From the NCBI GenBank assembly GCA_035470985.1, contig DATIQI010000244.1, positions 1 through 33,549 on the forward strand: DNA of 33,549 nt, written 5' to 3'. The stretch's first letter is position 1. Every line of letters begins with the position of its first letter. Below the pieces are notes generated by a model, which saw only the letters and a list, made by a program, of their open reading frames with translations, searched no databases and had not been told where the DNA came from. This stretch comes from Acidobacteriota bacterium. GTDB taxonomy: Bacteria > Eisenbacteria > RBG-16-71-46 > SZUA-252. The translations under genes were made by a program, and so were the position numbers. This document shows, piece by piece, positions 14,016 through 33,549 of the stretch.

Positions 14016-14035
14016 CTCGTCGCTCCCACCTGGTC

Positions 14036-14733: not shown

Positions 14734-14789
14734 CCTGGAATCGTTTGCGTTTCGAGCGCTTCGCCCGCGGTCGAATCCCGCGCGGGCGT

Positions 14790-15302: not shown

Positions 15303-15526
15303 GCGATTTCTCCCCTAGGCCCGACGGTCGAATCCAGCCGCGAGGCTGGGCCCCTCTCGCGGCGGCCCCCGATTCCGAGAATTCGGCGGCGAACGGAGTG
15401 CTTGCTCTTATGAACCCCGCTCCGGGGTCGTGGTTCGGGCGCCGATCCCGTTTCGACGGCGCCGGTCACGGAAACGCCGCGGGGCGTAAGGCCACGCGGC
15501 GCCATGGGATCCAGGGATCGGGCGAC

Positions 15527-19861: not shown

Positions 19862-19923
19862 CGCTTCATCCTCCGTGGGTCGGGCGCCGATCGCATCGGC
19901 CATGAGCAGCGGTGGCAAGGGTG

Positions 19924-19996
19924 TGGGCCCTGTTGGACTCGAACCAACGACTCCCTGCTTAAAAGGCAGGTGCTCTACCGCCTGAGCTAAGGGCCC
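19924..19996 (-). tRNA. tRNA-Lys: tRNA-Lys, anticodon UUU
   Basis: Hand-folded cloverleaf: acceptor GGGCCCT/AGGGCCC, D arm GCTC-AGGCGGTA-GAGC, anticodon arm CCTGC-CTTTTAA-GCAGG, variable loop GAGTC, T arm GTTGG-TTCGAGT-CCAAC, discriminator A. CCA is not encoded. Confidence 0.9.
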
Positions 19997-21051
19997 ATCT
20001 GTCGCAGCGCGTGCAGGTTACCACGACTCTCTCGATCCGACGTTAGCCCAACTGATCCGGTGACTGTGCCGGTTTCCGACCAGACGCGCTCCAACTCCCG
20101 GCGCACCGCAGCGTCCGAGAGTCGGGAGTAGCGCTGCGTCGTGACCACCGACGCGTGCCCGAGCAGCTCCTGCACGGCCGGGAGCGTCACTCCGGCCTCG
20201 AGCCACCAGCACGCCGCCGTGTGGCGCAGCATGTGCGGGTGGAACCGCGCGACGCCGGTTTCGCGCCGCACGATCCGCGTGAACGAGCCCTTGGACGACG
20301 CACTGAAGGGAACGAGCCGCCCGATCCGCCCGGCGATCGCGCGGTCGAGGTCCGGCGGGAGCGGAATGCGTCGCACCCGTCCGGTCTTCCCCGCCACGAC
20401 CACCAGTGTTCCCCGCTCCACATCCTTCGCCTGCACGTTCGTCAGCTCCCCCCACCGCAGTCCGGTCGCGAGCCCGAGCCGGAGCGTGAACCGGTAGGGT
20501 TCGGCGACCGTGAGCAACCGCCGCACTTCATCCTCCGTGAGCCGGTCCGGCGGTCGCTCGGGCACGCGCGGCATGAGGCCCCGCGGGAACGGGCTTCGGT
20601 CCAGGTACCCGGCGTCCACGAGCCAATTGAGGAACCTCCGCACCTCCTTCAGGTAGTGGCGCACGGTCTCGGGTTTGAACGGCCGGTGGTCCCTGCCGGC
20701 ACCGATGCCCTCGATCCAGATGCGCAGCTCCCGCAGGTGGTCCGGCCGGATCTCCGTGACCCGGAGATGCCCGAGGAGCGGCTCCGTGAACCGCCGGAAG
20801 CAGCTCTCGGCTTCCCGCCTCCCCCGTTCGGTCTTCCGGGTCCGAACGTCGGTTTCGAGCCAGCGGCGGCCCAGCGTGGCGACCGTCGCGTGCGGAGCGG
20901 GTGACGCGATTCCGGCGCGGAGTCGGTGGAGCAGGGTCACCGCCCTCCCGAACTCGCGGCCCAGCGACTTCCGTCGCTCGCGACCACCCTCGAAGATCCG
21001 TGCGTAGTAGCACGGACCGCGTTTGTACATCCCTCGCGGGAGCTTCGGCAT
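19987..21051 (-). CDS. int: Tyrosine recombinase / phage-type integrase
   Basis: Catalytic signature residues are present: GLRWGEL (Arg), HMLRHTAACW (H-x-x-R), LLGHASVVTTQRYS (His...Tyr). The last three codons and the stop lie inside the tRNA-Lys 5' end. Confidence 0.9.
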   Translation of the reverse strand: MPKLPRGMYKRGPCYYARIFEGGRERRKSLGREFGRAVTLLHRLRAGIASPAPHATVATLGRRWLETDVRTRKTERGRREAESCFRRFTEPLLGHLRVTEIRPDHLRELRIWIEGIGAGRDHRPFKPETVRHYLKEVRRFLNWLVDAGYLDRSPFPRGLMPRVPERPPDRLTEDEVRRLLTVAEPYRFTLRLGLATGLRWGELTNVQAKDVERGTLVVVAGKTGRVRRIPLPPDLDRAIAGRIGRLVPFSASSKGSFTRIVRRETGVARFHPHMLRHTAACWWLEAGVTLPAVQELLGHASVVTTQRYSRLSDAAVRRELERVWSETGTVTGSVGLTSDRESRGNLHALRQMGP

Positions 21052-21054: not shown

Positions 21055-21294
21055 TCAGGCCTCCGTTCGGTGCCGAGCCCACGCAAGTACGTCCGCGGGG
21101 ATGAAGCGTAGGCGGGCGCCGAGGCGGACGCAAGGAAGGTCGTGGTACGTGACGAGCCGGCGCAGGGTCTTCGTCGACAGGCGGAGGAAGCGTGCGGCCT
21201 CCGCGGTGGTCCAGAGGTGATCGGGCAGTCCGGGATCCGACCCCCTCGCGGTGCGAAGCGCGGCATCGAATCCAGAATCCCTAAGGCGTCGCAT
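21055..21294 (-). CDS. Excisionase/AlpA-like (MerR-superfamily) HTH protein
   Basis: The internal ATG at 21294 gives MRRLRDSGF...WTTAEAARFLRLSTKTLRRLVTYHDLPCVRLGARLRFIPADVLAWA, a typical Xis-type HTH. It lies 3 nt upstream of int and overlaps the preceding gene by 14 nt. Confidence 0.55.
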   Translation of the reverse strand: MRRLRDSGFDAALRTARGSDPGLPDHLWTTAEAARFLRLSTKTLRRLVTYHDLPCVRLGARLRFIPADVLAWARHRTEA

Positions 21295-22102
21295 CGACCG
21301 CCTCGTTCTCGCTTGCGGGACTGCGGGTTGTTCCCGCCTCCCTCCCCTTACTGCAAGGGGAGGCCGCGAGGGGAGGCGGCGCCAGCAGCTGTAGGAGCGC
21401 CGACGGCAGATCGTCCATCGAATCGCAGGTCGCGGATCGGCCAGCGAACCCTTGGCCAAGGATCGTTCGGATGCGCACCGCACGCTCCGCGGACCGGGTC
21501 AGGAAGAGTAGATCCAGCTCGCCGCAGCCGAGCGCTTCCCCGAGGGTCCCGTACCGCCGGACCTTGCTTTCCACCTCGGCGAGTCGCTCGGTACCCAGGT
21601 CGACCTCGACCGCGACGACCCGCGTCACCCCCTCCCCACCGAGCACAAGAAGAAGGTCCGGGACGATCCCCCAATCGGAGGACGTGCCTCCCTCCCGGAG
21701 CTCCCAGTCGGGGAGCGCCCGGATCAGCCGCGGACCGGACGGGGCGGTCGCAACGGTGGCCCACGTCCAGACGATCGCCAGATGGTGATCGAGGCCGCCC
21801 CGCGGTACCCTACCCACCGGCGTTCCGCGGTCCTCGAGCGCCCGGCGACCCGCTGGCCCCACCAAGTACCAGCTCTCCTGGTTGGGAGCCCCCGCGCGCA
21901 CCTCCAGCACGTGCGCGTCGTAGAGCTTCCGCAGTCGCGCCGCCGCGGTGTCCCGGCGGACGCCCCGGAAGCAGACGGAGGCCAGGTCGCTGGTCCGAGC
22001 GATCCGAAAGCGGTTGAGGGCGAGCAGTAGCTTCACGTCCCGCTTCCCCATCACGATCCGGCCCGTTCTGCGTCTCCGATCGCGCGCGATCCTCGCCCTC
22101 AT
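21281..22102 (-). CDS. Replication-relaxation (Replic_Relax-like) protein: wHTH plus a PD-(D/E)xK-like core
   Basis: The ATG at 22102 overlaps the upstream stop (ATGA). The N-terminus is KRDVKLLLALNRFRIARTSDLASVCF...RLRKLYDAHVLE (wHTH-like). The core is IVPDLLLVL...VVAVEVDLGTE, matching the family signature as I recall it. This needs HMM confirmation. Confidence 0.5.
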   Translation of the reverse strand: MRARIARDRRRRTGRIVMGKRDVKLLLALNRFRIARTSDLASVCFRGVRRDTAAARLRKLYDAHVLEVRAGAPNQESWYLVGPAGRRALEDRGTPVGRVPRGGLDHHLAIVWTWATVATAPSGPRLIRALPDWELREGGTSSDWGIVPDLLLVLGGEGVTRVVAVEVDLGTERLAEVESKVRRYGTLGEALGCGELDLLFLTRSAERAVRIRTILGQGFAGRSATCDSMDDLPSALLQLLAPPPLAASPCSKGREAGTTRSPASENEAVDATP

Positions 22103-22419
22103 ACGAACGGGCTCCGCACCGGAAGCTGGCAGGTCGGGCAGCTGGTCCACCCCGCTCGCCCCCCGCACACCCGGCAGCGCCCGAACACGTACCCTTCGTG
22201 CACGGCACGGCAGGACGCGCAGAGGAAGACACCGTAGAGCGGAACCGCGTGCCCACGCGGGCATGCGGTCTTCTTGGAAAGCATCGTCGGCAGTCGGGTC
22301 CCGAATCGGGCTGCCTTAGTGAGCGCTCCTACGCCCAGCGCGATCGTGTGGACAACCCACCACGCAATCTGGATCGGGAGTAGGACGAGGCCCACGAGAT
22401 CACTTCCGCCGCGTGCCAT
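22099..22419 (-). CDS. Membrane-anchored Cys-rich (double zinc-ribbon-like) protein
   Basis: It has one N-terminal TM helix (LVGLVLLPIQIAWWVVHTIALGVGAL). This is followed by CPRGH..CASC..CRVCGG..CPTC. Confidence 0.5.
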   Translation of the reverse strand: MARGGSDLVGLVLLPIQIAWWVVHTIALGVGALTKAARFGTRLPTMLSKKTACPRGHAVPLYGVFLCASCRAVHEGYVFGRCRVCGGRAGWTSCPTCQLPVRSPFV

Positions 22420-22424: not shown

Positions 22425-24011
22425 CTACCCCAGCCCCAGCTCGTCCGACCCACCGAGCACTGGGGGTCGCGCCAGTATGTTGGATAGCCCCCGCGCCGGC
22501 GGGGTCGCCCCTTCCGATTCGCGCGCGATCGTGGCCCGCACCTCGTCGGCTGGGATCGAGACCGTCCCGGCACGGATCCGATCACGGATCTCCTCCGGGA
22601 CCTTCTCCGCGGCGGCGCGGAGGGCGTCCATGTCCAGGCGGGGCGAGCGGCAGACCTGCGCGCGTGCGCGCTCCTTGGGCCAGAGCAGGAACTCCCGTCG
22701 GCCGAGGGACGTGAGCTGCTCCACGGCGTCCTCGCGCGTTGCACCCTTCCCCGGCTTTCGATCCCGCCGATCCGTGGGCATCGCGTGGGCCATCGCCTTC
22801 GCGTCCTCGAACGCGCACCGGTACGACATCTCGAGCGCCACGTTTGTCCGGAGCAGCTTCAGGAGCACCGGGTCGATGGCCGCGATCTGGGCCGGCTGCT
22901 GGTTGATGAACCAGGCCGAGCACTTCTTCCAGCGAACCTGCGAGAGGAGTCGCGCGAACTGTGCGCGCTCGTCCCGGCCGAGGCCCTCCTGGAACTCCTC
23001 GAATACGAGCAGCGTCTGGGGCGAATCGGGTCCGACGTGTCGAGAGAGCGCGGCACGCGTTAGCCGCGAGAGCAGCACCGACGACCAGAACCGGGCGAGC
23101 CGCTCGGCTCCGGCTGGTGGGTCACCAACGTCGATCACGGTTAGACCAGACTCCAAGCACTGGGCGAACGACAGGCAGGAGGGGGCGCTCAGGGCGAGGC
23201 GGGTCCCCTCGTTCAGGAGGAACAGGTCGAGACGGGAGCGCACCGCGTCGATCGAGGTCCGGTTCTCGTGCGTCAGGAGCTCGCCGACGTACCGCTTCGC
23301 GGCTGGGTCGGTGGATCTCCGGGCATCGCGCTGGAGCAGCGAGGGCGCACCGAGCCAATCGAGCATCCGCGGGAGCGGCAGGTCGAGTTCGATCAGGATC
23401 GAGACCAGCCGGAGCACGATCCGCTCCATCCGGAGGCCGAACTCGTCCTCGACGCCGGCACAGAGCGTGGTCGCGATCGATCGGGCTTGGACATCGCGCG
23501 GCACGCTCTCCGGTTGGGTGATCCGAAGGAGCGGCACCCGAACCGGATCGAATGGTCGGACGACGCGGAGGTTCCTTAGTAGGTGTTCCGGCGAGACGCC
23601 AAGTGCGATGAGCGCAGGAACGACGACGTCCAGGATCAAGGAGGACAACTCGCCCTTCAAGTCGGTGATCACTACCGGCGTTCTGCCGTGGCGGAGCAGC
23701 TGCATCAACACAGCGAGGGCGCCGTAGCTCTTCCCGCTTCCCGAGGCCCCGACCGTCGAGAGCGAACGGGCGAGGAACTCTTCCCGGGGGAGGCCCACCC
23801 AGAACGGCTTCCCGTGGTCGTCGCGGGTGCGACCGAGCACTACGGCGTCCGGCCCGGGCTCCACGCGCATCTGTTGAACGAACGTGCGGAGGTCCTCAAT
23901 CCGAGACGCGTCCTCGGCCTCGACCAACCGGCGGTGCCACGTCCGGGCGAGCTCGGCGGGGCCGCGTCCGAGGCGCTGCCGCTGTAGGTACGCGAGCCAG
24001 TCCCAGCCCAC
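22425..24011 (-). CDS. Soluble P-loop NTPase of the T4CP (TraD/VirD4) / HerA-FtsK type
   Basis: The GTG start shares 1 nt with the upstream TAG. Walker A is VGASGSGKSYGAL, followed by PVVITDLKGE. The Walker-B-like motif is TLLVFEEFQEG, and there is a Gln-rich motif WFINQQPAQI. No TM helix is present. Confidence 0.7.
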   Translation of the reverse strand: MGWDWLAYLQRQRLGRGPAELARTWHRRLVEAEDASRIEDLRTFVQQMRVEPGPDAVVLGRTRDDHGKPFWVGLPREEFLARSLSTVGASGSGKSYGALAVLMQLLRHGRTPVVITDLKGELSSLILDVVVPALIALGVSPEHLLRNLRVVRPFDPVRVPLLRITQPESVPRDVQARSIATTLCAGVEDEFGLRMERIVLRLVSILIELDLPLPRMLDWLGAPSLLQRDARRSTDPAAKRYVGELLTHENRTSIDAVRSRLDLFLLNEGTRLALSAPSCLSFAQCLESGLTVIDVGDPPAGAERLARFWSSVLLSRLTRAALSRHVGPDSPQTLLVFEEFQEGLGRDERAQFARLLSQVRWKKCSAWFINQQPAQIAAIDPVLLKLLRTNVALEMSYRCAFEDAKAMAHAMPTDRRDRKPGKGATREDAVEQLTSLGRREFLLWPKERARAQVCRSPRLDMDALRAAAEKVPEEIRDRIRAGTVSIPADEVRATIARESEGATPPARGLSNILARPPVLGGSDELGLG

Positions 24012-24385
24012 TAGGTATCACCGAACGGCAGCGTGGGGTCCTCGTCCGGGGGCATACGACGAGCGCGCCCGTACGCCGGGACATCCTCGGCCCGGTGCCG
24101 AGCGGTTCGCCGCAGCCGCTCGCGGTCCGCCTGCCGGCGCTTCGCAGCAGCCGGATCACCCACGGACCGAACCAGCCGAGCGCCGAGTCCTACGAGGAAC
24201 ACGACCGCCAGGATCCCCAGGACACCGGATCCAAGCGCGGGCCCCAGGGTGTTTCCGATTCCGTGCAGAACGTCGCCGGTCACCGCCGAAACGATGCCAC
24301 CAACCATCGGGAACAGGACCGCGAGGACGATCAGCAGGAGAACGAGGCGCCACGCGGTCCGCAGGATGCGCTCGACGAAGTTCAC
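24011..24385 (-). CDS. Small polytopic membrane protein (2-3 TM) with a basic C-terminal tail
   Basis: The GTG at 24385 overlaps the upstream stop (GTGA) and has GGAGG 5 nt upstream. The sequence is WRLVLLLIVLAVLFPMVGGIVSAV...GSGVLGILAVVFLVGLGARL. Confidence 0.45.
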   Translation of the reverse strand: MNFVERILRTAWRLVLLLIVLAVLFPMVGGIVSAVTGDVLHGIGNTLGPALGSGVLGILAVVFLVGLGARLVRSVGDPAAAKRRQADRERLRRTARHRAEDVPAYGRARRMPPDEDPTLPFGDT

Positions 24386-25167
24386 GGCAGCCTCCGAAAC
24401 CGAACGGCGCGGGCCCCGGATCGTTCGAAGAAGGCCTTCCAGAACGCGCGCAGGGCGCTCCGCTCCGATGCGTCGAGGTTTGGACGCGGCACCTCCAGCA
24501 CTTCGACCTCGACTCCTTGGAGGTTGGCGGCGTGGCGGCGAAGCCACCCGGGGAGCGCCTGGAGCGTGGAATCGAGCGGAACCCGGTACAGGGAGAACCC
24601 GGGGGCGTTCTCGAGGAGATCGCTCACCAGCACGAGCCGACGGCTCGGTACGGTCGGTCCGAATCCCTCGAGGTCCGCCGCTTCCTTGATGGCAGCGCAG
24701 AGTCCCGTTCGCTCGGCGGTGGACGGTTGGAGGGCCTGGTCGAGGGCCTCCCGGAGCGGGCGGGAGAAGATGGAATCGACGCGGGCCGCGCGACGGCTCG
24801 CCGTTTCGACGAGCGCGTTGACGGACCGGTCGGGAACCCGGGCGCGGAACCAGGACCGCGCGTCCCCGTCGGGGTACTGGCCGATCGAGCAGAGGGTCAC
24901 GAGTTCGCCCCGTTGGAACTCGAACGCCTCCATCTCCCCGAGGCGCCGGCGTACGGCCTCCGCCTGCACGGCGCTGAGCGGGTCCGTGACGTCGAGCAGC
25001 AGGAGCGTGCTGCGCGTACTCGGCAGTGTGGGGTCAACGTCCGCTCGCTCGATGCGCCGGTTCCGATCGCGGAGCGACTCCTGCAGCGCGAGCATCCCCA
25101 CGAGCGCGAGGAAGACGAAGGCGAGGAGGGCAATGCCGACGCGGTCCTGGGTGCCGAGACGCTTCAC
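24382..25167 (-). CDS. N-terminally anchored protein, possibly a degenerate vWA-like alpha/beta fold
   Basis: The GTG at 25167 overlaps the upstream stop (GTGA) and has GGGAGGG upstream. The TM helix is IALLAFVFLALVGMLAL. Then come STLLLLDVTDPLS ... ERTGLCAAIKEAA ... RRLVLVSDLLEN, which resemble the vWA beta1/MIDAS-like, helix and beta4 segments. The MIDAS motif is imperfect. Confidence 0.45.
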   Translation of the reverse strand: MKRLGTQDRVGIALLAFVFLALVGMLALQESLRDRNRRIERADVDPTLPSTRSTLLLLDVTDPLSAVQAEAVRRRLGEMEAFEFQRGELVTLCSIGQYPDGDARSWFRARVPDRSVNALVETASRRAARVDSIFSRPLREALDQALQPSTAERTGLCAAIKEAADLEGFGPTVPSRRLVLVSDLLENAPGFSLYRVPLDSTLQALPGWLRRHAANLQGVEVEVLEVPRPNLDASERSALRAFWKAFFERSGARAVRFRRLP

Positions 25168-26576
25168 GCGGCTGCCCTCCCGCCCGGGCCCTGCGAACGG
25201 TCGGCTCCCCCGCGGCGCATCATCTCCTCCACGTGCCCCTCGACGCGGGCGAGCGCGGCCGTGATGCGCTCCGAGTTCTCGAGCACGATGCCGTGCGCCC
25301 GGCCCTCGAGGTCCGCGTGGATTGCCCGGGCGCGGGCGGCCCGCTCCGCGAGTCCCCGGACGAATTCCTCCGGGATGAGCGTCGTGAATGCCGGGTACTC
25401 GGCGAAGTACGCCGGCGGCGGACTGGTACGAACGAAGAGGTTTTCCTCCCGCCACGCCTTGAGCAGCGCGGTGCAGCGCGCCTGGATGTCCGCACGGTCG
25501 GTTTCGTACCCGTCCCGCACTCGGTACGCCTGAACCACGATGGCGTCGAGGCCGGAGAGCGCGGCACGCCCTCGGCCGAGTTCCTCCTGGAGATCGAGCG
25601 GGAGCCTCTGGACGCGGGCGACGACGCGGGCGACCTGCTCATCCCGCGCTTCGAGGAACGCACGGTCGGCGTTCCGGAAGGCCCGATCCCGCACTCCGTA
25701 GAACGGGTAGCCGTCGTCGGAGGTGTAGCCCTTGAGGAGGCTGATACCCCAGGTGAGGAGCCCGGTCGCGAGGAGCGCGGCGCTCAGGAAACCCAGACCG
25801 AACGGATCGCCCAGGAGGTCGTGGAGGGACGCGGCGGCCGCCGTCCCCGAGGCGAGCCGATCCCGGTACGCGGCCACCACCAGATTGAAGCCGCCCGCGA
25901 ACGCCACGGCCAGCACCAGCCCAACGAAGCCCAGGACGCGCCCGACCCTGCTACGGTGCGCCAGCCACGGGAGGACCATCCGCCCGGTGGCGAAGGCGCT
26001 CCCGACGTTCACGAGCGCCACGCCGGAGGCTCCCAGGAATCCACCGAGGAGGCCGAAGTCGGCCGCCTCGGAGAAGAGCCACGCGTTCGCGCAAGCTTCG
26101 ACGAGGAGCAGTACGGCCACGATCCCGAAGTGGAGCCAGGCCGAGGCCGGGTAGTGGGCGTCCCGGGCGAGGCCGTGGTCACGAGCGAACACCCGGAGAT
26201 CGCGCAATCGCCGCTCCCGCTCCGCCCAGAGCGTTGCCAGTTCGCCCGCGGAGCCGACCTCCCGGTCGACGTCACCTGCAGCCTGGGCGACCCGATCGGT
26301 GAGGTCGCGTGCGGTCGGGAGCGAGGCCTCGATGGTCGTGAACTGTGCGGTGAGCCGATGGACCTCGGCGCCTGCCGGCTCCCCACGCTCGCGGTGCTGG
26401 CGCTCGAAGGAACGGACGATCTCCATCTCGAACTCGGTGGGACCCGTCGCGTCCAAGGTGGGGAGGTTCTCCCGACCGGAAGCTCGAGCATCGCCCCGGA
26501 GGGAGCGACCTCTTGCAGCGCCGCGGATCGAACGGACTGCCCTTCGGGGGAATTCGCGGGTGGGAAGATACCGCAT
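25164..26576 (-). CDS. Four-TM membrane protein flanked by long helical (coiled-coil-like) cytoplasmic regions
   Basis: The ATG at 26576 has GAGGAGGA 4 nt upstream. The first 160 aa are charged and helical. The four hydrophobic helices are WLHFGIVAVLLLVEACANAWLF, LLGGFLGASGVALVNVGSAF, VLGFVGLVLAVAFAGGFNLVVAAY and LGFLSAALLATGLLTWGISLL, followed by KGYTSDDGYPFYG and 170 aa of helical sequence. Confidence 0.6.
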   Translation of the reverse strand: MRYLPTREFPRRAVRSIRGAARGRSLRGDARASGRENLPTLDATGPTEFEMEIVRSFERQHRERGEPAGAEVHRLTAQFTTIEASLPTARDLTDRVAQAAGDVDREVGSAGELATLWAERERRLRDLRVFARDHGLARDAHYPASAWLHFGIVAVLLLVEACANAWLFSEAADFGLLGGFLGASGVALVNVGSAFATGRMVLPWLAHRSRVGRVLGFVGLVLAVAFAGGFNLVVAAYRDRLASGTAAAASLHDLLGDPFGLGFLSAALLATGLLTWGISLLKGYTSDDGYPFYGVRDRAFRNADRAFLEARDEQVARVVARVQRLPLDLQEELGRGRAALSGLDAIVVQAYRVRDGYETDRADIQARCTALLKAWREENLFVRTSPPPAYFAEYPAFTTLIPEEFVRGLAERAARARAIHADLEGRAHGIVLENSERITAALARVEGHVEEMMRRGGADRSQGPGGRAAA

Positions 26577-26584
26577 CGGGTCCT

Positions 26585-26631
26585 CCTCGTTGTGGCAGCC
26601 CGAATCGACTCGGGTAGCTCCGACAACGAGG
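26585..26631 (-). promoter_or_regulatory. Leader hairpin that pairs with part of the RBS of 25164..26576
   Basis: The outer stem is 9 bp: CCTCGTTGT (26585-26593) with ACAACGAGG (26623-26631). The inner stem is CCCGA/TCGGG. On the mRNA the 3' arm ACAACGAGG runs into the GAGGAGGA Shine-Dalgarno. Confidence 0.3.
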
Positions 26632-26730
26632 GGTGCGGTCAGTGTGACAGATCGATCGCCACCGAGAGCCGAGGCGGCGCGGACCCCGCACTGTTGCCGT
26701 GGGTGCCGCTCGGGGTTGCGCGCCGCCGCC

Positions 26731-26937
26731 TTACTCGCGACGTCTTTGCAGTTTCCTAACCTCCTCCTCGACAACGTCCCGGCGGACGGGGCTCGCCCAG
26801 AGTGCGAGCAGCATGCGAATTCGAGTGGAAAGGGATCGGGCAGCCTGGCGGGGGCTCTCCTCGAGCTCCAGCGCGCTCAGGCTGCCCGTCATCGGTTTCG
26901 TTCGTTCCGATCTTGGGTAGCCATTGCGATCCTCCAT
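26731..26937 (-). CDS. Hypothetical 68-aa protein (possible small regulator)
   Basis: The ORF has a strong RBS (GGAGGGAGG, 8 nt upstream of the ATG). It lies at the head of the minus-strand operon. No recognisable motif was found. Confidence 0.3.
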   Translation of the reverse strand: MEDRNGYPRSERTKPMTGSLSALELEESPRQAARSLSTRIRMLLALWASPVRRDVVEEEVRKLQRRRE

Positions 26938-27277
26938 TTCGTGCGCCTCCCTCCATGGAAGTGCTCACCAGCGGTCCGCCGCCCCACCCCCCGGAGGGAC
27001 GGCACGACCCTTCGCGCGATGGTAGCGCGGGTGTGACAGCGCAGAACCTCGATCCAACTTGACTGCACCCAACCGTGGCAGTACCATGCACTTAGGCTTG
27101 GTTCGGGCCATCTCGGCATCCGTAGACAGGTTCCACGGACCCGCACGCCTCCCAAGCTCGCGCGTCCGGACTCCACGTCGGCCGCGCCCTTTCTATTCGG
27201 GGTGTCACAACCATCCCACCGGGATGCGAGACACACGCTGTCCGCGACCTCGGCCCCGGACCTGGAGGGTTCCCACC

Positions 27278-28036
27278 GTGCCGCGCGCAGAGGAGCTTCT
27301 CGCGATCGTTCGCGACTTCAACCGGTCCCCCGGCGACCGAGTCGCGGCGTTCTCGGAACTCCTAGGCCTCAGGTCGGGTTGGTGGGGCACGGGCCTCACG
27401 CTGCGGGAGTTCGCCGTCTCCCGCGCCTCCTACTTCGCGGAGCGTCGGTCGCAGGCGGGACTTCCCGGCGACCTCCTGGACGCCGAGGGCATCGCCGATG
27501 AGGCACTCCTCCTCCTCCAGGACCCCGAGGCGGTCATCCAGGGGGAGCCCGCTGGGTGGCTGGTCGGCGTGATCAAGATTCTACTCGCAGGTGGGCTTCG
27601 GCGGGAATCCATCCATATTCGGTCCATCTCGCTCGACGATCCGAACGTGCGAACGGTGCCGCCATCAACGCGTGCGGACCACGGCACCGAACGCTCGACC
27701 GAGGAGATCGCCGCCGCCTGGACCCTCGGGCGCGCGCTGGTCACGGCGCTCAGGGAGATGCCGCCGGGACGGAGGCGCACCGCCGAGCACGTGCTCCGTG
27801 CCATCCTCGCGCATTATCTCGAGAAGCGACGGTTCGTAGGGTTCGCGCTCCTCGGTGAAACTCTCGGAAAGAGCGGGGACGCGGTCCGACAGGACTGGCA
27901 GCGCGCCCGGAAGCAGATCGAAGCGTCGGTGCGCCACGCCGCGCCGCACTTATTGCGAATGCTTGGACCGATAGGAAGGCGCTTCAAGCGCCTCCAGGAT
28001 AGGTCCTCCGTCCAGGGAAGGCCCGGGGACGGATAA
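27278..28036 (+). CDS. Divergent ECF-like sigma-70-family protein (tentative)
   Basis: The GTG at 27278 has GGAGGG 8 nt upstream; the ATG at 27224 is an alternative. The region-2-like segment is AEGIADEALLLLQD...WLVGVIKILLAGGLRRE. The region-4-like segment is ALREMPPGRRRTAEHVLRAI...LGETLGKSGDAVRQDWQRARKQIEASV. Confidence 0.4.
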   Translation: MPRAEELLAIVRDFNRSPGDRVAAFSELLGLRSGWWGTGLTLREFAVSRASYFAERRSQAGLPGDLLDAEGIADEALLLLQDPEAVIQGEPAGWLVGVIKILLAGGLRRESIHIRSISLDDPNVRTVPPSTRADHGTERSTEEIAAAWTLGRALVTALREMPPGRRRTAEHVLRAILAHYLEKRRFVGFALLGETLGKSGDAVRQDWQRARKQIEASVRHAAPHLLRMLGPIGRRFKRLQDRSSVQGRPGDG

Positions 28037-28155
28037 CCAAGCCTCCTAAGGAGCACATTTTGACCAGAACGCGCAAGGGCGGGACCGCGACGGGGTAATG
28101 TACGAGCCGAATCGAGGCGCCTGCGTACCCGCGGAGTCGCAAACTGAGAGCTCGC

Positions 28156-31100
28156 CTATTTCAGCAACGTCATTCTGCTGGTGGATTCCAAACCGTCCGC
28201 GAATCGAATCTTGTAAAAGTAAATCCCGCTCGCGACTGTTGCGCCTCCGGCGTTACGACCGTCCCACCGCACCTCATTCACCCCCGGTGTAGCACGGACG
28301 AGGATCGACCGAACATGCTGGCCCGCGATGTTAAATATCCGAATCGTCGTCGCTCCGATGCGCGAACTGACAAACCGGATCGTGGTGTACGGGTTAAACG
28401 GGTTCGGGTAGTTGCCGTAGAGGTGGCTCCGAGTCGAGGGAACTACTGGACCGCCCAGGGAGACTCCTGTAATCAACTGGTTATCCTGGATCGGGTACAG
28501 GGGGCCGTAGAGCGATGTTTGGAAGCCCGCAGAGCCGTTCCAGTTGTTTGTCATGGTGGGGTCCGACGGACACGGCCAGCACTTGAGTGTGTCGAGCTGT
28601 CCCCGCACACCACGGCAGCCAGTCAGGAACTTGTACAGCACACGCATCCTGTCTTCGATTCCAGTGTGTGGGTAGAGCGGAGATGACGGGGGTGCACCCT
28701 GATGACGCACGGCCCCGATCGTGAAACCGTAGCTCAGCGCTTTCGCCCGGTCGTGATCCGTTACCGTATCCGTCTCAAATGTGTACGCGACGCCTGCCAC
28801 CTGTGTCTCGCCGCCAAAGCCCGGGTAAAGAGCCGCATTAGTCGCCTGGAAGCTGCCCACTTTGGTCAGCGCGTCAAAACGCTCCGGACGGGGGCAGCCT
28901 CCATCCAGGTCGTACGAGAAACCGCTCACCAGTCCAGGTCCTGACGATGGATTCGCGAACTTATCATCGATCGCAGGATACTGAACAGATCCCGTTCCGT
29001 TCCAAGAATCTCCGACCGTGACGAGGCCGAGTACGTTGTTGAGGAAATGTGCTCTATAAGTGCCCGGTTCCCCCGGGGGTACATCGGCGAGGCTCCTCAA
29101 CACATCGTTACCAGTGACCAGAAGGCACCGATCCCCGGCACTAGCTTCTGGGAACGACTCCCCCGTCGTAGGCTTGGCCCACCAATCGCTCAGTAATGCC
29201 GCATCGGACTCGTCAATCGGCACAGCACTCCGTTCATGTGTCGCCTCAATGACAATCCGGTACCACTTCGCGAGGGAATCCGCTATGGGGTAATCGAGCG
29301 CATTCGGGAAGTAGTTCCGATCGTGCCTCGGGCGCTGCCCCGGCCATTCACGCCCGCCGATCCCCGAACCAAATCCGAACCCCTGGAGCAGCCGATACCG
29401 ATCCACCCTGACTCCGAGACCCCGTAACGCCTCGATGACTGGATCTCTCCCAGTCTCCCAGGTGGTGTATGCACCGTCCAGGTAGAGGATCGGGGTGGTC
29501 GTCCTGCCTTGTAGCAAAGTACCCGCATGCCCTGGCTCGTAAACACTCGGGAGGACATCGAACTCGATAATGTCCGGTGCGAGTGTGACGCCACCCGGAA
29601 GCAGTGGGAGATCGGCTACCTCGTTGGCGGCGCGGTCCGTCTGGAACTGGTACACGGCCGTCCCGGCGATATCAACCGCCTTGAAGTAATACTGGAGGCG
29701 TGTGCCCCTTGGGAGGAATGACAAGGAGGAGTACGCGGCGACGCCGTTGATCGTAAAGCCGCCTGGGAGGTTGAGGCCGATCTTGTCCCGCGGAGGCCAG
29801 TCCACGCGGAACTTGCTACCCACGAGGATCGTGTCTGTGCCCGCGATCACGACGGCATCCGCATCCAGTTCGGTGGAATCGAATGGGCTCCAGCTCTTGG
29901 TTTGTGGGTCGAGGAGTCGGTAAATCATCCGGGGTGCCCCGAGGCTCGGCTGGTAGGCGGCGTTGTCAACCAGAACTGGTACGCCCGCCGCGTGTCCTCG
30001 GTGCCAGTTGATTCCCATTCCGTTGCTGCGTATTCCGGACACGATGCTAACAACCACGGAATCCCCGATCGGGCTGTTGAAGTTGTCCGTGATCGCCCCA
30101 ACCCCTATCCCACTTCCACGTATACCAGGCCAACATGGGGGGGAAACACAGGTTACGGGACCGCAGGGTCCACCACCACAGTTCGCCCGACTCAAGATCG
30201 TCCCATCAACGAAAGTCGACTGCGCAACCGAGGATGGGAAGATCCCGAAGGTTGGGACCTCGGATCCCGAAACGACCTCGAGCACGAGGTCATCGTAGAG
30301 CACGCCGTATAGCGTGGAGGAATTGCACACACCATCCCGGGCCAAGTTCTGAACGCACTGGAGGTTGAAGCGGACTTGGACTGAGTCCGCGCCTATCGCC
30401 AGAGGCAGATCGTCACCATCCGTGACCCACGTTTCCTCGACTCCATGCACTACGGCCCCGCTGGCACGTGTGTTTGCCCAAACGGTCCACGCGCCATCTC
30501 GGTACACTCTATATTCAGACCATTGCACGTATCCATCCCCAACAGGGAGGTTTAAGTACGCAGTCCACCGGGTATTGACCGCACCCGTGCCTGGAGGGAT
30601 TGGAAACGAACACGTGGTGAGCGATGTGGATTGCCCGCTGACCGCGTTCTTACTGGCTGGGTCGCACCCAGTAAAAAAGTGGTCGGTCGCGCTGTTCTTT
30701 TGGACGCCGCAGATATCACTGGTCGCGTAGTCGCTGCCTGCCCCGATTAGCCAGGACGGGCCGACCCCATCTAGAATTCTCGGCGCGACAAGGGAGGACG
30801 TAGCGCCTTCGGAGTAGATCTCACCGTTGTCGCTCGTCTGGATGTTGTCCAGGACAACGCCGTTACCGTAGGGCCAGTTTCCGTCTTCACTCGAGAACAG
30901 GTTGTCCGAGACGAGCAGCATGTACAAGGCGCGATGCTCCGCAGCAATCGTGATGGCATATGGAACTGTGAGGGGACCCTGACTGGCACTACCCACGACC
31001 GTCACTTCCCCCGACGTCGTGTTCACCGATCCTCCATTTCGAATGCTGCCGGTCCACGAAATGAGTCGGCGGGCCGCTCCGGACTCACCGAGATTGACCA

Positions 31101-32115: not shown

Positions 32116-32301
32116 AAAAAACCGCCACACGCCGACAATTACGCGCCTGCCACGGGGTGGCGTGCACGTTGGCTGCCCATTAGGTCCACGGGGTATGGCA
32201 TTGGTTGTCATTTCCGTCACTCCCAAGCCTGGCCGAAGAGCTCCGGATATCGCGCTCCGGGCCAATGCATCCAAGGATCGCAGCACTCGAACCAAGCTGT
32301 C

Positions 32302-33201
32302 CTACCGCCAGTCCCCAATGTACTCATCACCAGGACCGGGGCTGACCTGGGCTTGGCCGGAGCCATCAGGGTTCATCGTGACGATCGCGAGGTACGCCGA
32401 AGCACCCCAGGAGAAAGCGATCTTGGACCCGTCGGGCGACCAGATTGGGTACCACTTGATTCCGCTTGTGTTCGTTAGCTTCTGGAGGTTTGCTCCGTCG
32501 CTATTCACGACATAGATTTGCGAGTCACTACCTGACGGCCCATACCAGTGGAACACGATCCTCGCCCCGTCAGGCGACATCCGCGGGTAGACCTCGTGAA
32601 CGGTGCCGAGGTTTAGACTGAGGATGCGGCTCTGGCCAGTTCCGTCCGCGTTGAACCGGACGATCCCGAAGCCGTCAACACCGAGAAATGTGTTCTGCGA
32701 TGTCCAGCTAATCTCGAACACGTTTAGGGTATCCGCTACGAGTGTGGGAGAGGTACCGTCCGCGTTGACTGTCCAGAGTTCCGGGTACGTGCTCGTCGTG
32801 CGAACGAAGGAGATTCTGGTCCCATCCGGGGACCAGCTGGGGCTGTCGTCGCCAAGATCATCCGTAAGTCGCACGGGGTCCGTCCCATCCCAATTCATAA
32901 CCGCGAGTTGATGCCGGTCGAAGGGATACGTCTGTGCGACGTAGCGCCGGAGGAACGCGATCCGTTTCCCATCGGGAGACCACCGAGGTTGCGAGTCAAA
33001 GAGGGAGTCATTGGTTAGCCGCGCCACGCCGGAGCCATCGGGCCTCATCGAATAGACCTCCCAGGCGGGAATGTCCCGGGAGCTGGCGAACAGGAGCCCG
33101 TTGCCTGACGTGGGGAGAGATGGCTTGGTCGGTTTGTCTTTGTCGCATGCAGTGCATAGCACCATTGCCATCAGTACAAGCAGGGGAACGCGCTTCAGCA
33201 T
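32302..33201 (-). CDS. TolB-like PD40 beta-propeller (lipo)protein
   Basis: The ATG at 33201 has GGAG upstream. The signal is MLKRVPLLVLMAMVLCTAC. PD40 motifs repeat through the protein: QPRWSPDGKRIAF, SPSWSPDGTRISF, YPRMSPDGARIVF, YPIWSPDGSKIAF. Confidence 0.8.
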   Translation of the reverse strand: MLKRVPLLVLMAMVLCTACDKDKPTKPSLPTSGNGLLFASSRDIPAWEVYSMRPDGSGVARLTNDSLFDSQPRWSPDGKRIAFLRRYVAQTYPFDRHQLAVMNWDGTDPVRLTDDLGDDSPSWSPDGTRISFVRTTSTYPELWTVNADGTSPTLVADTLNVFEISWTSQNTFLGVDGFGIVRFNADGTGQSRILSLNLGTVHEVYPRMSPDGARIVFHWYGPSGSDSQIYVVNSDGANLQKLTNTSGIKWYPIWSPDGSKIAFSWGASAYLAIVTMNPDGSGQAQVSPGPGDEYIGDWR

Positions 33202-33549
33202 GGGAACTCCTTCTGACACAGGCCCAGAGAGGCCACCGGGCGAGGGTCCTCGGACGGGGGACGCATTGATTCTCGCCTTCAGCATGTTCAGATTAGGATG
33301 GTCCACAAGGTCCAGATCTCCACGCGGACTGCTGCCTCTCAAGGAGGTGCTAGTGGGGGGACTCCTTCGCAGCAGCCGCGGGAAGCGGCGGATAAACCGG
33401 GCTCGTGCGTGTACCGCTCCCGGGGAGCGCGGCTGCCGATGCCACGAGTATGCGCGCCTCCCGGCCGCGGCCGCAACGGCGGTCCGGCCGTCGGATGGAC
33501 CTCGCGTGACCGCTACGGCGTCCAACCGGCCCACTGCCCCGTGTTCAGG

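What the first reader, a model, noticed from the sequence alone, without database searches (positions are those of the whole stretch)
22425..26576. Uncharacterised four-gene membrane/ATPase module inside the tRNA-linked element (candidate novel DNA-transfer or conflict system)
Four co-oriented genes are stitched together by start/stop overlaps: GTGA at 25164-25167, GTGA at 24382-24385 and TAGTG at 24009-24013.
- A 470-aa protein with four central TM helices between two long helical cytoplasmic regions, carrying a KGYTSDDGYPFYG motif right after TM4.
- A 261-aa N-terminally anchored protein whose strand/helix pattern looks like a degenerate vWA fold (LLLLDVTDPLS ... TGLCAAIKEAA ... LVLVSDLLEN).
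- A 124-aa polytopic membrane protein.
- A 528-aa soluble P-loop NTPase with T4CP/HerA-like Walker A, Walker B and Q-rich motifs, but lacking the TM domain of canonical coupling proteins.
I cannot match the three membrane proteins to any family I know. The combination could be a minimal mating-pore/translocation apparatus, with the ATPase's membrane anchor supplied in trans, for a compact integrative element resembling the single-ATPase transfer systems of actinomycete integrative elements (AICEs). Alternatively it could be cargo: a membrane-effector/NTPase defence system carried by the element. Either option would be undescribed for this kind of lineage.
Basis: partly seen in the sequence, partly recalled or inferred. 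Interest (0 to 1): 0.8.

Follow-up and report, generated by a model that had tools for sequence, protein, structure and literature searches.

The report
Mobile-element transfer genes plus membrane cargo
The four overlapping genes are real but are two separate things: a membrane-anchored DNA-pumping ATPase belonging to the core of a small tRNA-linked mobile element of Candidatus Eisenbacteria, and a swappable pair of uncharacterised membrane proteins from a very large, unnamed family.

Summary
Four co-oriented minus-strand genes overlap at exactly the stated bases. A has 4 TM helices and the KGY..DD.YP.YG motif, B is an anchored vWA fold, C has 2 TM helices, and D is a soluble HerA/FtsK/T4CP-type P-loop ATPase.

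The genes are not one module.
- **C and D** are conserved in about 17 Candidatus Eisenbacteria loci as C-D-(membrane Zn-ribbon protein)-Replic_Relax/MOB_C relaxase-HTH_17 excisionase-tyrosine integrase-tRNA. This matches the compact "coupling protein-relaxase-xis-int" layout of integrative mobilizable elements (IMEs). C looks like D's membrane anchor encoded as a separate gene.
- **A and B** occupy a variable slot just upstream of C. Sister elements carry an E2/JAB/E1 system there instead. A/B identities disagree with the D tree.
- **The A-B pair** belongs to a large family with no Pfam, NCBIfam, PADLOC or PHROGs model (3,070 clusters at 50% identity). In 120 metagenome loci it never sits next to D. 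There it usually heads a four-gene operon A-B-X-Y. X weakly resembles a TolQ/ExbB stator with a long coiled-coil tail, and Y is weakly TolR-like.

Verdict: an IME backbone of a known kind, with a split coupling-type ATPase, carrying an uncharacterised membrane cargo pair. The function of A-B is unresolved; I lean towards envelope-associated conflict cargo.

The parts
25164..26576 (-). A: 470-aa inner-membrane protein. It has an N-terminal cytoplasmic helical region, 4 TM helices, the KGY..DD.YP.YG motif, and a long C-terminal helical region. It is the first gene of the exchangeable A-B cassette.
   Evidence: ORF and overlaps. TM helices. AlphaFold2 gives an all-helical model, pLDDT 81. No fold match in PDB or BFVD. 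No Pfam hit in 62 family members. Family of 3,070 clusters at 50% identity.
24382..25167 (-). B: 261-aa protein with an N-terminal signal-anchor helix and a vWA domain carrying a variant MIDAS site (DxTD...SD). It is the obligate partner of A.
   Evidence: AlphaFold2 pLDDT 89. Foldseek top hits are vWA domains. B follows A in 90 of 94 metagenome loci that have room for it. Alignment.
24011..24385 (-). C: 124-aa protein with 2 TM helices and a conserved basic/acidic cytoplasmic tail (R..RL..RR.AEDVP....DPxLP). It is the proposed separately encoded membrane anchor of D.
   Evidence: Overlaps both neighbours. Found directly upstream of D in 17 of 19 related loci, with or without A-B.
22425..24011 (-). 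D: 528-aa soluble HerA/FtsK/T4CP-superfamily P-loop ATPase. It is the proposed coupling-type DNA translocase of the element.
   Evidence: Walker A, Walker B and sensor motifs. Pfam hits among 35 relatives: DUF87 33, HerA_C 23, TrwB_AAD_bind 20, FtsK_SpoIIIE 9. A profile search of PDB sequences hits HerA, FtsK and a 'DNA translocase coupling protein'. D is always followed by the Zn-ribbon gene and the relaxase gene.
22099..22419 (-). E_cys: 106-aa protein with an N-terminal hydrophobic helix and a Cys-rich (CxxC-type) Zn-ribbon-like C-terminus. It is a conserved backbone gene lying between D and the relaxase.
   Evidence: It starts 5 nt after D's stop. tblastn found it in every related locus long enough to hold it, at 33-73% identity. 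No Pfam hit.
21281..22264 (-). Replic_Relax (PF13814, MOB_C-type) putative relaxase. The true start is probably near 22090, because the long ORF would otherwise overlap E_cys.
   Evidence: Pfam E 1.4e-9, 38.8 bits against a cutoff of 25.3. PF13814 corresponds to the CONJscan MobC relaxase superfamily (PMC5357655) and has a PD-(D/E)XK fold (PMC3424549).
21055..21483 (-). HTH_17 (AlpA/Xis-like) excisionase candidate. The domain sits in the C-terminal 50 residues of the ORF, and relatives are 78-128 aa, so the real gene is probably shorter than this ORF.
   Evidence: Pfam HTH_17 E 2.3e-11. Gene sizes in relatives.
19987..21051 (-). Tyrosine integrase.
   Evidence: Pfam Phage_integrase E 1.2e-23. 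Conserved at this position in relatives.
19923..19996 (-). tRNA-Lys(UUU). Its 5' end abuts or overlaps the integrase stop codon. It is the presumed attachment site.
   Evidence: ARAGORN. The same int-then-tRNA arrangement on one strand occurs with tRNA-Arg and tRNA-Cys in relatives.
26577..28100 (.). Distal arm of the element. It holds the ORFs 26731-26937 (-) and 27059-28036 (+), neither of which has a family hit. G+C falls from about 0.69 to about 0.60 near 28.0 kb, where a T9SS-sorted surface-protein gene begins. The far boundary is inferred, not shown.
   Evidence: Composition profile. Pfam results. No att direct repeat was found.

Best explanation
The block is a composite of two units sitting in one tightly packed operon-like array.

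**1. C and D belong to the backbone of an approximately 8-kb integrative mobilizable element (IME).**
- The element lies on the 5' side of tRNA-Lys.
- Its gene order is C, D, E_cys, MOB_C-type relaxase, Xis, Int.
- D is a soluble ATPase of the HerA/FtsK/T4CP superfamily, presumably hexameric.
- I infer that D acts as the element's own coupling protein or DNA translocase. After excision by Int and Xis, the relaxase nicks the element, and D delivers the relaxase-DNA complex to a secretion channel, most likely one borrowed from a conjugative element in the same cell.
- C is a 2-TM protein translationally coupled to D, with a conserved cytoplasmic tail. I infer that it is the N-terminal membrane anchor that canonical coupling proteins carry in the same polypeptide, here encoded as a separate gene.

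**2. A and B are an exchangeable two-gene cassette in the element's variable slot.**
- A is a 4-TM inner-membrane protein with cytoplasmic coiled coils.
- B is a signal-anchored vWA protein, probably facing the periplasm.
- They form an obligate pair in a very large uncharacterised family.
- Elsewhere the pair normally heads a four-gene operon with a TolQ/ExbB-like, long-tailed membrane protein (X) and a TolR/ExbD-like protein (Y).
- I infer that A-B is cargo rather than transfer machinery. The most likely role is an envelope-associated conflict, exclusion or sensing function that benefits the element or its host.

**What is shown and what is inferred**
- Shown: gene structure, folds and motifs, conserved C-D-E-relaxase-xis-int synteny, optional and discordant A-B, and A-B independence from D.
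- Inferred: the coupling-protein role of D, the anchoring role of C, mobilization by a helper system, and the function of A-B.
For: **Backbone**
- The order D, E_cys, Replic_Relax, (HTH_17), Int was found in essentially every related Candidatus Eisenbacteria locus.
- A tRNA or tmRNA gene sits next to the integrase.
- PF13814 is the MOB_C relaxase family. A compact CP-relaxase-xis-int layout is documented for streptococcal IMEs, including a MobC plus VirD4 class (PMC5357655).

**D**
- Walker A, Walker B and the NQQP sensor motif are present.
- Relatives hit DUF87, HerA_C, TrwB_AAD_bind and FtsK_SpoIIIE.
- A profile search of PDB sequences hits HerA, FtsK and a coupling protein.

**C**
- It is present immediately upstream of D in 17 of 19 loci.
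- It always has 2 TM helices and the same tail motif, in lineages with and without A-B.

**A-B as a separable cassette**
- A-B is present in only 6 of the D-bearing loci. Seven others carry E2-CBASS/JAB/ThiF genes in the same slot. In several loci the slot is bounded on the far side by a conserved gene, U.
- A-B-bearing elements fall in two separate D lineages.
- Identities to the window are discordant. L001 has A 50%, B 47%, D 80%. L145 has A 55%, B 52%, D 45%.
- In 120 metagenome loci (G+C 0.31-0.72), B follows A in 90 of 94 loci with room. X follows in 60 of 63, and Y in 41 of 51. D never appears.
- A-B occurs alone in alphaproteobacterial-type chromosomal contexts.
- Type I R-M, GmrSD, TIR and methyltransferase genes lie beside or in the slot in sister elements.
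Against: **Against the mobilization reading**
- The window's D does not reach the thresholds of the T4CP-specific Pfam models. T4SS-DNA_transf has E 0.23 and TrwB_AAD_bind has E 0.3, and both match only the P-loop region. 'Coupling protein' is therefore a reading from context, not a family assignment.
- No att direct repeat, oriT or excised form was found.
- No helper T4SS is known for this phylum.
- The element sits on the 5' side of the tRNA, which is unusual.

**Against A-B being independent cargo**
- Where A-B is present in these elements it is always directly abutted to C, with start/stop overlap in the window. It is kept in two D lineages. A functional link between A-B and C-D is therefore not excluded.

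**Against a defence role for A-B**
- Support is only guilt by association.
- Many A-B-X-Y operons lie among housekeeping genes.
- The neighbour census shows only modest enrichment: of 136 neighbouring proteins, 3 had GmrSD_C, 3 an integrase domain, 1 NERD, 1 Mrr and 6 SNase.
Confidence: 0.6

Rival explanations
1. The four genes form one functional machine. A-B would be the membrane platform, with a periplasmic vWA sensor, and it would be powered by the C-anchored ATPase D. In these elements C-D would take the place that the X-Y (TolQ/TolR-like) pair holds in the canonical A-B-X-Y operon. The machine would serve either as a defence or exclusion system, or as a minimal translocation pore.
For: - In all six A-B-bearing elements the order is strictly A-B-C-D, with overlapping or abutting genes.
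- The arrangement persists in two D lineages that are only 45% identical.
- A-B in these elements, unlike most family members, lacks X-Y.
Against: - C-D occur in at least 11 loci without A-B, and keep the same C tail motif there.
- A-B occur without D in 120 of 120 sampled metagenome loci.
- A-B adjacency to C is explained by the position of the variable slot. E2/JAB/E1 modules occupy the same position in other elements.
- A/B similarities and D similarities are discordant.
- The C profile shows no similarity to TolR or MotB.
Confidence: 0.12
2. The element is an autonomous, AICE-like element. D would be a TraB/FtsK-type double-stranded-DNA translocase sufficient for transfer. The Replic_Relax protein would be the replication initiator, giving a rep-xis-int order like pSAM2 (from my own knowledge). 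A, B and C would play Spd-like membrane roles in spread or pore formation.
For: - The order Replic_Relax, xis, int, together with a single FtsK/HerA-like ATPase and several small membrane proteins.
- PF13814 has been linked to plasmid replication as well as relaxation (PMC3424549).
- FtsK_SpoIIIE hits occur in 9 of 35 D relatives.
Against: - The host lineage is Candidatus Eisenbacteria, not a mycelial actinomycete. Its T9SS-type sorting domains imply an outer membrane. I know of no precedent for single-ATPase dsDNA transfer across a diderm envelope.
- The window's D does not hit FtsK_SpoIIIE.
- A-B are optional and widespread outside mobile elements.
Confidence: 0.1
3. D and the Replic_Relax protein are not transfer genes. 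They would instead form a HerA-plus-PD-(D/E)XK-nuclease defence pair, like the DUF4297-HerA or SIR2-HerA systems, carried on an integrative island.
For: - The best PDB sequence hits of the D profile are defence-associated HerA proteins such as 8j4u and 8wiv.
- NCBIfam gives a weak HerA_antiphage hit.
- Replic_Relax has a PD-(D/E)XK nuclease fold.
- Sister islands are rich in defence genes.
Against: - All these hits cover little more than the P-loop, at 20-30 bits.
- The PADLOC mad8 hit comes from a profile built from HHpred matches against the PDB, so I treat it as generic rather than MADS-specific.
- The pair is invariably fixed next to xis-int, in the order typical of IME mobilization modules, and is the only constant non-recombinase content of the islands.
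- Walker A at residue 88 leaves little room for the HAS-barrel that HerA proteins have (inference; not modelled).
Confidence: 0.1

Closest known systems
Streptococcal integrative mobilizable elements with a compact coupling protein-relaxase-excisionase-integrase module, especially IME class 8 (VirD4 CP plus PF13814/MobC relaxase) (Coluzzi et al. 2017, PMC5357655)
   Same: - The gene order matches: ATPase upstream of the relaxase, then excisionase, then integrase.
- The relaxase carries a PF13814 domain.
- The element is small, site-specific, has cargo upstream of the module, and has no T4SS genes of its own.
   Different: - The integrase is a tyrosine recombinase, not a serine recombinase.
- The ATPase is a divergent HerA/FtsK-like protein below the VirD4 and TcpA model thresholds.
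- Its membrane anchor (C) is a separate gene.
- An extra membrane Zn-ribbon gene lies between the ATPase and the relaxase.
- The host is a diderm FCB-group candidate phylum.
- Insertion is on the 5' side of tRNA genes.
TcpA / FtsK-like non-canonical coupling proteins of Firmicutes ICEs and IMEs
   Same: Both are HerA/FtsK-superfamily ATPases encoded just upstream of a non-canonical relaxase in a small mobile element.
   Different: TcpA proteins hit PF01580 clearly and carry their own TM segments. D does not hit PF01580 and has no TM anchor. The relaxases partnered with TcpA are RCR-type, not MOB_C.
Actinomycete integrative and conjugative elements (AICEs; TraB plus Spd proteins)
   Same: Both have an int-xis-rep/relaxase core plus a single FtsK/HerA-type ATPase and small membrane proteins.
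   Different: The phylum and cell envelope differ. D lacks the FtsK_SpoIIIE signature and the TraB architecture. A relaxase-type domain is present. The membrane proteins A and B are optional cargo that is also found outside mobile elements.
Zorya (ZorA/ZorB) and other TolQ/ExbB-type 5:2 motors, including inner-membrane-tethered vWA proteins linked to TolQ-like genes (Mol Biol Evol 2025, PMC12204202)
   Same: - This comparison concerns the wider A-B family.
- Its usual partners are X, which has a TolQ/ExbB-like TM core followed by a very long coiled-coil tail as in ZorA, and Y, which has a TolR/ExbD-like helix with an Asp.
- B is a membrane-tethered vWA domain, like the proposed vWA force transducers.
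   Different: - A and B hit no ZorA or ZorB model. X and Y hit them only weakly and only in the coiled-coil tail.
- B lacks both the SHLS/His motif and a conserved TM Asp.
- A has no counterpart in those systems.
- The window has no X or Y at all.
Defence-associated HerA ATPases (SIR2-HerA, DUF4297-HerA) and PADLOC 'mad8'
   Same: DUF87-type P-loop core. These give the best sequence hits of the D profile in the PDB and the best PADLOC hit.
   Different: The similarity is confined to the generic ATPase core. There is no Sir2, DUF4297 or other MADS gene nearby. The fixed partners are a relaxase-family protein, an excisionase and an integrase.

Membership tests
Type IV coupling protein (VirD4/TrwB) | N-terminal two-helix membrane anchor in the same polypeptide | tested here: not met
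   D has no convincing TM helix; the one hydrophobic window the scan flagged (122-140) lies inside the ATPase core. A 2-TM protein, C, is encoded immediately upstream with a 1-nt overlap, and is conserved with D in 17 of 19 loci. The feature is therefore possibly supplied in trans.
Type IV coupling protein (VirD4/TrwB) | Match to T4CP-specific models (T4SS-DNA_transf, or TrwB_AAD_bind including the all-alpha domain) | tested here: inconclusive
   For the window protein, E is 0.23 and 0.3, below the cutoffs, and only the P-loop region matches. TrwB_AAD_bind is hit by 20 of 35 relatives at E <= 0.01, with a best value of 1.1e-6.
Type IV coupling protein (VirD4/TrwB) | Encoded next to a relaxase and working with a T4SS | tested here: inconclusive
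   Adjacency to a PF13814 gene is universal. Any interaction with a T4SS cannot be tested with these tools.
HerA/FtsK superfamily P-loop ATPase | Walker A, Walker B and the Q/R sensor motif of the RecA-like core, plus a DUF87 match | tested here: met
   GASGSGKS at residue 88, LLVFEE at 334, and NQQPAQ. DUF87 scores 24.1 bits against a cutoff of 23.2 and is hit by 33 of 35 relatives. The profile hits HerA and FtsK chains in the PDB.
Integrative mobilizable element (IME) | Integrase, excisionase and relaxase present, with no conjugative pore genes of its own | tested here: met
   Phage_integrase, HTH_17 and Replic_Relax are all above threshold. None of the other genes hits a T4SS family.
Integrative mobilizable element (IME) | Defined ends (att direct repeats), oriT, excision and mobilization | tested here: inconclusive
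   No repeat of the tRNA region of 12 nt or more lies on the element side of the tRNA. No obvious oriT was found. Excision and transfer cannot be tested here.
MOB_C relaxase (PF13814) | Replic_Relax domain above the gathering score | tested here: met
   E 1.4e-9, 38.8 bits against a cutoff of 25.3, covering profile positions 3-175 of 191. Nicking activity was not tested.
vWA domain (protein B) | Rossmann-like vWA fold | tested here: met
   The AlphaFold2 model has pLDDT 89.4. There are 78 PDB matches at E <= 1e-3, and the listed top 50 are dominated by vWA domains.
vWA domain (protein B) | Canonical MIDAS motif DxSxS...T...D | tested here: not met
   The family conserves D59-x-T61-D62 and S182-D183 instead. 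Metal binding remains possible but was not tested.
Zorya (ZorA/ZorB) | MotA/ExbB-type and MotB-type proteins matching the ZorA and ZorB models | tested here: not met
   A-D have no ZorA or ZorB hit. The A TM region against TolQ/ExbB/MotA by hhalign gives probability 0.1%. The window has no X or Y.
MADS (mad1-mad8) | Multi-gene mad operon with methyltransferase, specificity subunit and kinase | tested here: not met
   The only hit is mad8, at E 1.8e-10 to D. The mad profiles were built from HHpred hits against the PDB, so I treat them as generic. No other mad gene lies in the block.
AICE (actinomycete ICE) | TraB with an FtsK_SpoIIIE domain, Spd proteins, and an actinomycete host | tested here: not met
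   The window's D has no FtsK_SpoIIIE hit. Relatives are annotated Candidatus Eisenbacteria. A-B are not element-specific.

The most novel reading that the evidence does not exclude
A-B may be the core of an undescribed, very widespread envelope machine. Its canonical form, A-B-X-Y, would combine four parts:
- a periplasmic vWA domain;
- a 4-TM coiled-coil protein;
- a ZorA-like, long-tailed TolQ/ExbB-type stator;
- a TolR-like partner, sometimes accompanied by a secreted SNase nuclease.

This would be a new class of motor-coupled sensor or effector acting against phages or incoming DNA. The Eisenbacteria elements carry a motor-less A-B. It might work with the host's motor, or with the element's own C-D ATPase in place of X-Y. 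The latter would make A-B-C-D an ATP-driven hybrid.
Probability: 0.15. Interest if true: 0.8.

Novelty: new variant of a known kind. Interest (0 to 1): 0.55.

Why it matters
- **A new mobile-element family.** The analysis defines a family of small tRNA-targeting mobile elements in a candidate phylum (Eisenbacteria). To my knowledge no mobile elements have been described there.
- **A split coupling protein.** The coupling-type ATPase appears to be split from its membrane anchor. If confirmed, this would be a natural test case for what the T4CP transmembrane domain does.
- **A reusable cargo slot.** The elements have a defined slot that alternates between an E2/JAB/E1 ubiquitin-like system and the A-B pair. 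That slot is a useful guide for finding new accessory or defence genes.
- **A large family with no model in the four libraries searched.** The A-B pair belongs to a family of thousands of sequence clusters with no Pfam, NCBIfam, PADLOC or PHROGs model and no solved relative. It usually sits in a four-gene membrane operon with a TolQ/ExbB-like long-tailed protein. A family this size with no known function is worth characterising, whatever it turns out to do.

Tried and rejected
**Family and structure searches**
- Pfam, NCBIfam, PADLOC and PHROGs scans of A, B and C found nothing above threshold.
- A single-sequence search of D against PDB sequences found nothing useful.
- Foldseek of the A model against PDB and BFVD returned only coiled-coil noise.

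**The mad8 lead**
- The PADLOC mad8 hit to D looked promising. I set it aside after reading that the MADS profiles were built from HHpred hits against the PDB, and because no other mad gene is present.

**Searches for related loci**
- The search for related loci with the A alignments failed, because no stretch was conserved enough. I replaced it with a degenerate DNA pattern for the KGY..DD.YP.YG motif. That sample is therefore biased towards family members that keep the motif.
- tblastn of A against plasmids found no match.
- tblastn of D against plasmids found only 84-residue P-loop matches to T4CP-annotated genes on Pseudomonas plasmids.

**Element boundaries and signals**
- The search for att repeats of the tRNA region found no repeat of 12 nt or more on the element side of the tRNA.
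- Promoter, terminator and inverted-repeat scans were uninformative.

**Profile comparisons with motor proteins**
- A TM region against TolQ/ExbB/MotA: negative.
- B and C against TolR/ExbD/MotB: negative.

**Other checks**
- X and Y profiles against the window and all element loci found no hit, so C is not a remnant of X or Y.
- Relaxed HMM searches for A or B homologues upstream of D in the loci lacking A-B found none.

**Not done**

Full report
**Observation**

The window is about 70% G+C up to roughly 28 kb, then about 60%. On the minus strand a tight array of co-oriented genes runs from 26576 down to a tRNA-Lys(UUU) gene at 19923-19996.

- TAGTG at 24013-24009;
- GTGA at 24385-24382;
- GTGA at 25167-25164.

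GGAGG-like ribosome-binding sites precede the B and C starts. Codon-position G+C periodicity supports coding for A, B and D.

Hydropathy and motif checks confirm the description of each protein:
- A has four TM helices followed by KGYTSDDGYPFYG.
- B has one N-terminal helix.
- C has two TM helices.
- D has no convincing TM helix, and has Walker A GASGSGKS and Walker B LLVFEE. The one hydrophobic window the scan flagged in D (residues 122-140) lies inside the ATPase core.

A, B and C have no hit above threshold in Pfam, NCBIfam, PADLOC or PHROGs. The packing does not end at D. The next gene starts 5 nt after D's stop.

**What surrounds the block**

Downstream of D lie five features:
- a 106-aa protein with a hydrophobic N-terminus and a Cys-rich Zn-ribbon-like tail (E_cys);
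- a Replic_Relax (PF13814) protein;
- an HTH_17 excisionase-like gene;
- a tyrosine integrase;
- the tRNA.

To the left of the tRNA are ordinary chromosomal genes: multihaem cytochromes, a histidine kinase and a LuxR-type response regulator. To the right, beyond about 28.1 kb, is a large surface protein with FlgD_ig and Por_Secre_tail (T9SS) sorting domains. The block therefore lies inside an element of about 8 kb attached to tRNA-Lys.

**The ATPase D and its fixed partners**

D has at least 90 homologous clusters of about 520 aa. Several are annotated Candidatus Eisenbacteria. A scan of species-representative genomes found 13 loci; 11 are annotated Eisenbacteria or Eiseniibacteriota MAGs and the other two are unnamed MAGs.

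In every locus with enough sequence the order is D, E_cys, Replic_Relax, usually HTH_17, then a tyrosine integrase. The integrase is typically followed by a tRNA gene on the same strand. The tRNA is Arg, Cys or Lys in different loci. In two loci a tmRNA gene takes that place.

A small 2-TM protein homologous to C sits directly upstream of D in 17 of 19 loci. It has a conserved cytoplasmic tail of the form R..RL.VRR.AEDVP....DPDP.L. This holds whether or not A and B are present.

D belongs to the HerA/FtsK superfamily. Among 35 relatives, the Pfam hits were:

| Pfam family | Relatives hit (of 35) |
|---|---|
| DUF87 | 33 |
| HerA_C | 23 |
| TrwB_AAD_bind | 20 |
| FtsK_SpoIIIE | 9 |

. A profile of the family finds HerA, FtsK and a 'DNA translocase coupling protein' among solved structures, but only over the ATPase core. 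The attractive PADLOC hit to mad8 (E 1.8e-10) is not specific. The MADS authors built their profiles from HHpred matches against the PDB, and no other mad gene is present.

**Reading the backbone**

PF13814 is the MOB_C relaxase superfamily of CONJscan. Coluzzi et al. describe streptococcal integrative mobilizable elements with exactly this compact order: coupling protein, relaxase, excisionase, integrase. One of their classes pairs a PF13814 relaxase with a VirD4 coupling protein (PMC5357655).

By analogy, C-D-E_cys-relaxase-Xis-Int is the mobilization and integration backbone of an Eisenbacteria IME family. D would be its coupling-type ATPase, and C the membrane anchor that canonical coupling proteins carry as their own N-terminus. 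This is inference from context. D does not reach the thresholds of the T4CP-specific models. No att repeat, oriT or helper T4SS was found.

Two alternatives are kept as rivals at about 0.1 each:
- An AICE-like single-ATPase transfer system. PF13814 has also been linked to replication.
- A HerA-plus-PD-(D/E)XK-nuclease defence pair.

**A and B are a different unit**

Direct searches found few A homologues and 21 B homologues, some from alphaproteobacteria. Distant A homologues are always followed by a B homologue, in contexts without C, D or an integrase.

A profile search of 1.84 billion representative proteins found 3,070 family members at E <= 1e-3, of which 1,421 are at E <= 1e-30. None of 62 sampled members has a meaningful Pfam hit.

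These loci span G+C 0.31-0.72. Within them:

| Gene following A | Present / loci with room |
|---|---|
| B | 90 / 94 |
| X | 60 / 63 |
| Y | 41 / 51 |
| D | 0 / 120 |

- X is a third gene of 470-660 aa, with a multi-TM N-terminus and a long Ala/Ser-rich coiled coil.
- Y is a fourth gene of 190-230 aa, with an N-terminal helix carrying a conserved Asp.

**Folds of A and B**

The AlphaFold2 model of B is confident (pLDDT 89.4). Its best PDB matches are dominated by vWA domains. The MIDAS site is a DxTD...SD variant. In many homologues the segment before the TM helix is strongly basic, which suggests that the vWA domain faces the periplasm. That is inference.

The A model (pLDDT 81) is all-helical. 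It has no significant match in PDB or BFVD.

**A-B is optional and exchangeable within the element family**

Among D-bearing loci, the position just upstream of C holds one of two alternatives:
- A-B in six loci: the window, L001, L002, L024, L145 and L146.
- An E2-CBASS/JAB/ThiF-E1 set, with one or two further genes, in seven loci: L003, L004, L005, L007, L010, L012 and L015.

In several elements of both kinds, a conserved small gene (U) bounds the slot on the far side. U is absent from the window.

On a D tree, the A-B-bearing elements fall into two separate lineages. Similarities to the window are discordant:

| Locus | A identity | B identity | D identity |
|---|---|---|---|
| L001 | 50% | 47% | 80% |
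| L145 | 55% | 52% | 45% |

This is the pattern expected for a cassette exchanged among elements, not for a co-evolving partner of C-D.

Type I R-M, GmrSD, TIR/Nmad2 and methyltransferase genes lie beside the slot in sister elements.

**What A-B might do**

The evidence is indirect.

For a conflict or defence role:
- A-B occupies the same slot as a ubiquitin-like E2/JAB/E1 system.
- Defence genes lie nearby in sister elements.
- In the wider family there are some neighbouring GmrSD, Mrr, NERD, integrase and transposase genes, and a secreted SNase next to the operon in 8 loci.

Against it:
- Many A-B(-X-Y) operons sit among housekeeping genes.
- No PADLOC model matches.

The partners X and Y give a mechanistic hint:
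- The X TM core aligns to TM2-TM3 of TolQ/ExbB. The match has hhalign probability 48% and E 1.8e-4 over 81 columns. It pairs YYLGF..TL with the GLFGTV motif, and GLITTFVGL with ALIATAIGL.
- The Y helix aligns weakly to the Asp-bearing helix of TolR (E 0.04).
- A TolQ-type stator with a very long cytoplasmic tail is the ZorA architecture.
- Membrane-tethered vWA proteins linked to TolQ-like genes have been proposed as force transducers (PMC12204202).

A itself shows no similarity to these motors. The window has no X or Y. I therefore commit only to 'exchangeable envelope-associated cargo, most likely a conflict, exclusion or sensing function'. I put the defence reading at roughly 40%.

**Verdict**

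- The anchor-in-trans idea fits C-D.
- The cargo idea fits A-B.
- The four genes are not a single module, and nothing supports a self-sufficient mating pore.

The backbone is a new variant of a known kind: an IME with a coupling protein-relaxase-xis-int module, here with a split, divergent ATPase, in a new phylum.

The A-B pair is a member of a large, uncharacterised family. Its usual four-gene form deserves study in its own right.

I could not exclude a functional link between A-B and C-D. The strict A-B-C-D adjacency recurs in two D lineages. I give that rival reading about 0.12.

Noticed in passing
Loci L023, L025-L144 and L151 (for example L028:4472-9004 and L151:6572-11344): A widespread four-gene operon, A-B-X-Y, has no model in Pfam or PADLOC. 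X has a TolQ/ExbB-like TM core (hhalign probability 48%, E 1.8e-4) followed by a 250-450-aa Ala/Ser-rich coiled-coil tail, which is a ZorA-like architecture. Y has a TolR/ExbD-like helix with a conserved Asp. The host G+C range is 0.31-0.72.
   Followed up: partly
L023:4759-5352, L068:8349-9173, L081:2444-3268, L053, L111, L031, L063 and L124: A staphylococcal-nuclease (SNase) homologue lies next to the A-B-X-Y operon in 8 loci. The one whose sequence I read (L023) has a hydrophobic, signal-peptide-like N-terminus. The gene sits either downstream of Y or divergently upstream of A, so it may be a fifth component.
   Followed up: partly
L003:7088-8822, L004:7309-9343 and L005:3266-5185; homologues in L007, L010, L012 and L015: In seven sister elements, the slot that holds A-B in the window instead holds an E2-CBASS / Prok-JAB / ThiF-E1 ubiquitin-like set, with no cyclase gene. 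It lies directly upstream of C-D.
   Followed up: partly
L001:748-1326, L002:6795-7376, L003:6310-7059, L010:6293-6925, L015:4192-4767 and L018:7533-8066: A conserved small protein, U, bounds the variable slot on the side away from C. It does so in elements carrying either kind of cargo. Its core is about 120 aa, with the motif VRVFVPS.DR.G..LP...GAT...G.GIW, and it has no family hit. It is absent from the window.
   Followed up: partly
Window 19923-21051; L001:7104-9520; L006, L011 and L018: The integrase is followed by a tRNA gene on the same strand, so the elements sit on the 5' side of tRNA-Lys, tRNA-Arg or tRNA-Cys. In L001 a second, unrelated integrase element with DUF3987 genes lies on the 3' side of the same tRNA-Arg. 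No att repeat was found in the window.
   Followed up: partly
Window 22099-22419: A 106-aa protein with a hydrophobic N-terminal helix and a Cys-rich Zn-ribbon-like C-terminus lies between the ATPase and the relaxase. It is conserved in all related elements at 33-73% identity. It has no family hit, and its role is unknown.
   Followed up: partly
Window 26585-26631: A 15-nt inverted repeat, 87% complementary with a 17-nt spacer, lies 9 nt upstream of the A start codon. It may be an operator or a 5'-UTR hairpin.
   Followed up: no
Window 27059-28036 (+) and 26731-26937 (-): Two ORFs in the distal arm of the element have no hits in Pfam or PHROGs and no homologues in the sister elements. The only sigma-70-like promoter match in the region (27059-27087) lies at the start of the plus-strand ORF.
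   Followed up: no
Window 28156-32295 and 32302-33534: The lower-G+C flank (about 0.60) holds two genes. One encodes a 1,379-aa surface protein with Big_9 and He_PIG domains and a C-terminal FlgD_ig/Por_Secre_tail (T9SS) sorting domain. The other encodes a PD40 beta-propeller protein. Both are consistent with an FCB-group host.
   Followed up: no
Window 8367-16471: The chromosomal flank to the left of the tRNA holds multihaem c-type cytochromes (10863-13044 and 14790-15302), a histidine kinase (8367-10766) and a LuxR-type response regulator (15527-16471). A 930-aa ORF at 16582-19374 has no Pfam hit.
   Followed up: no
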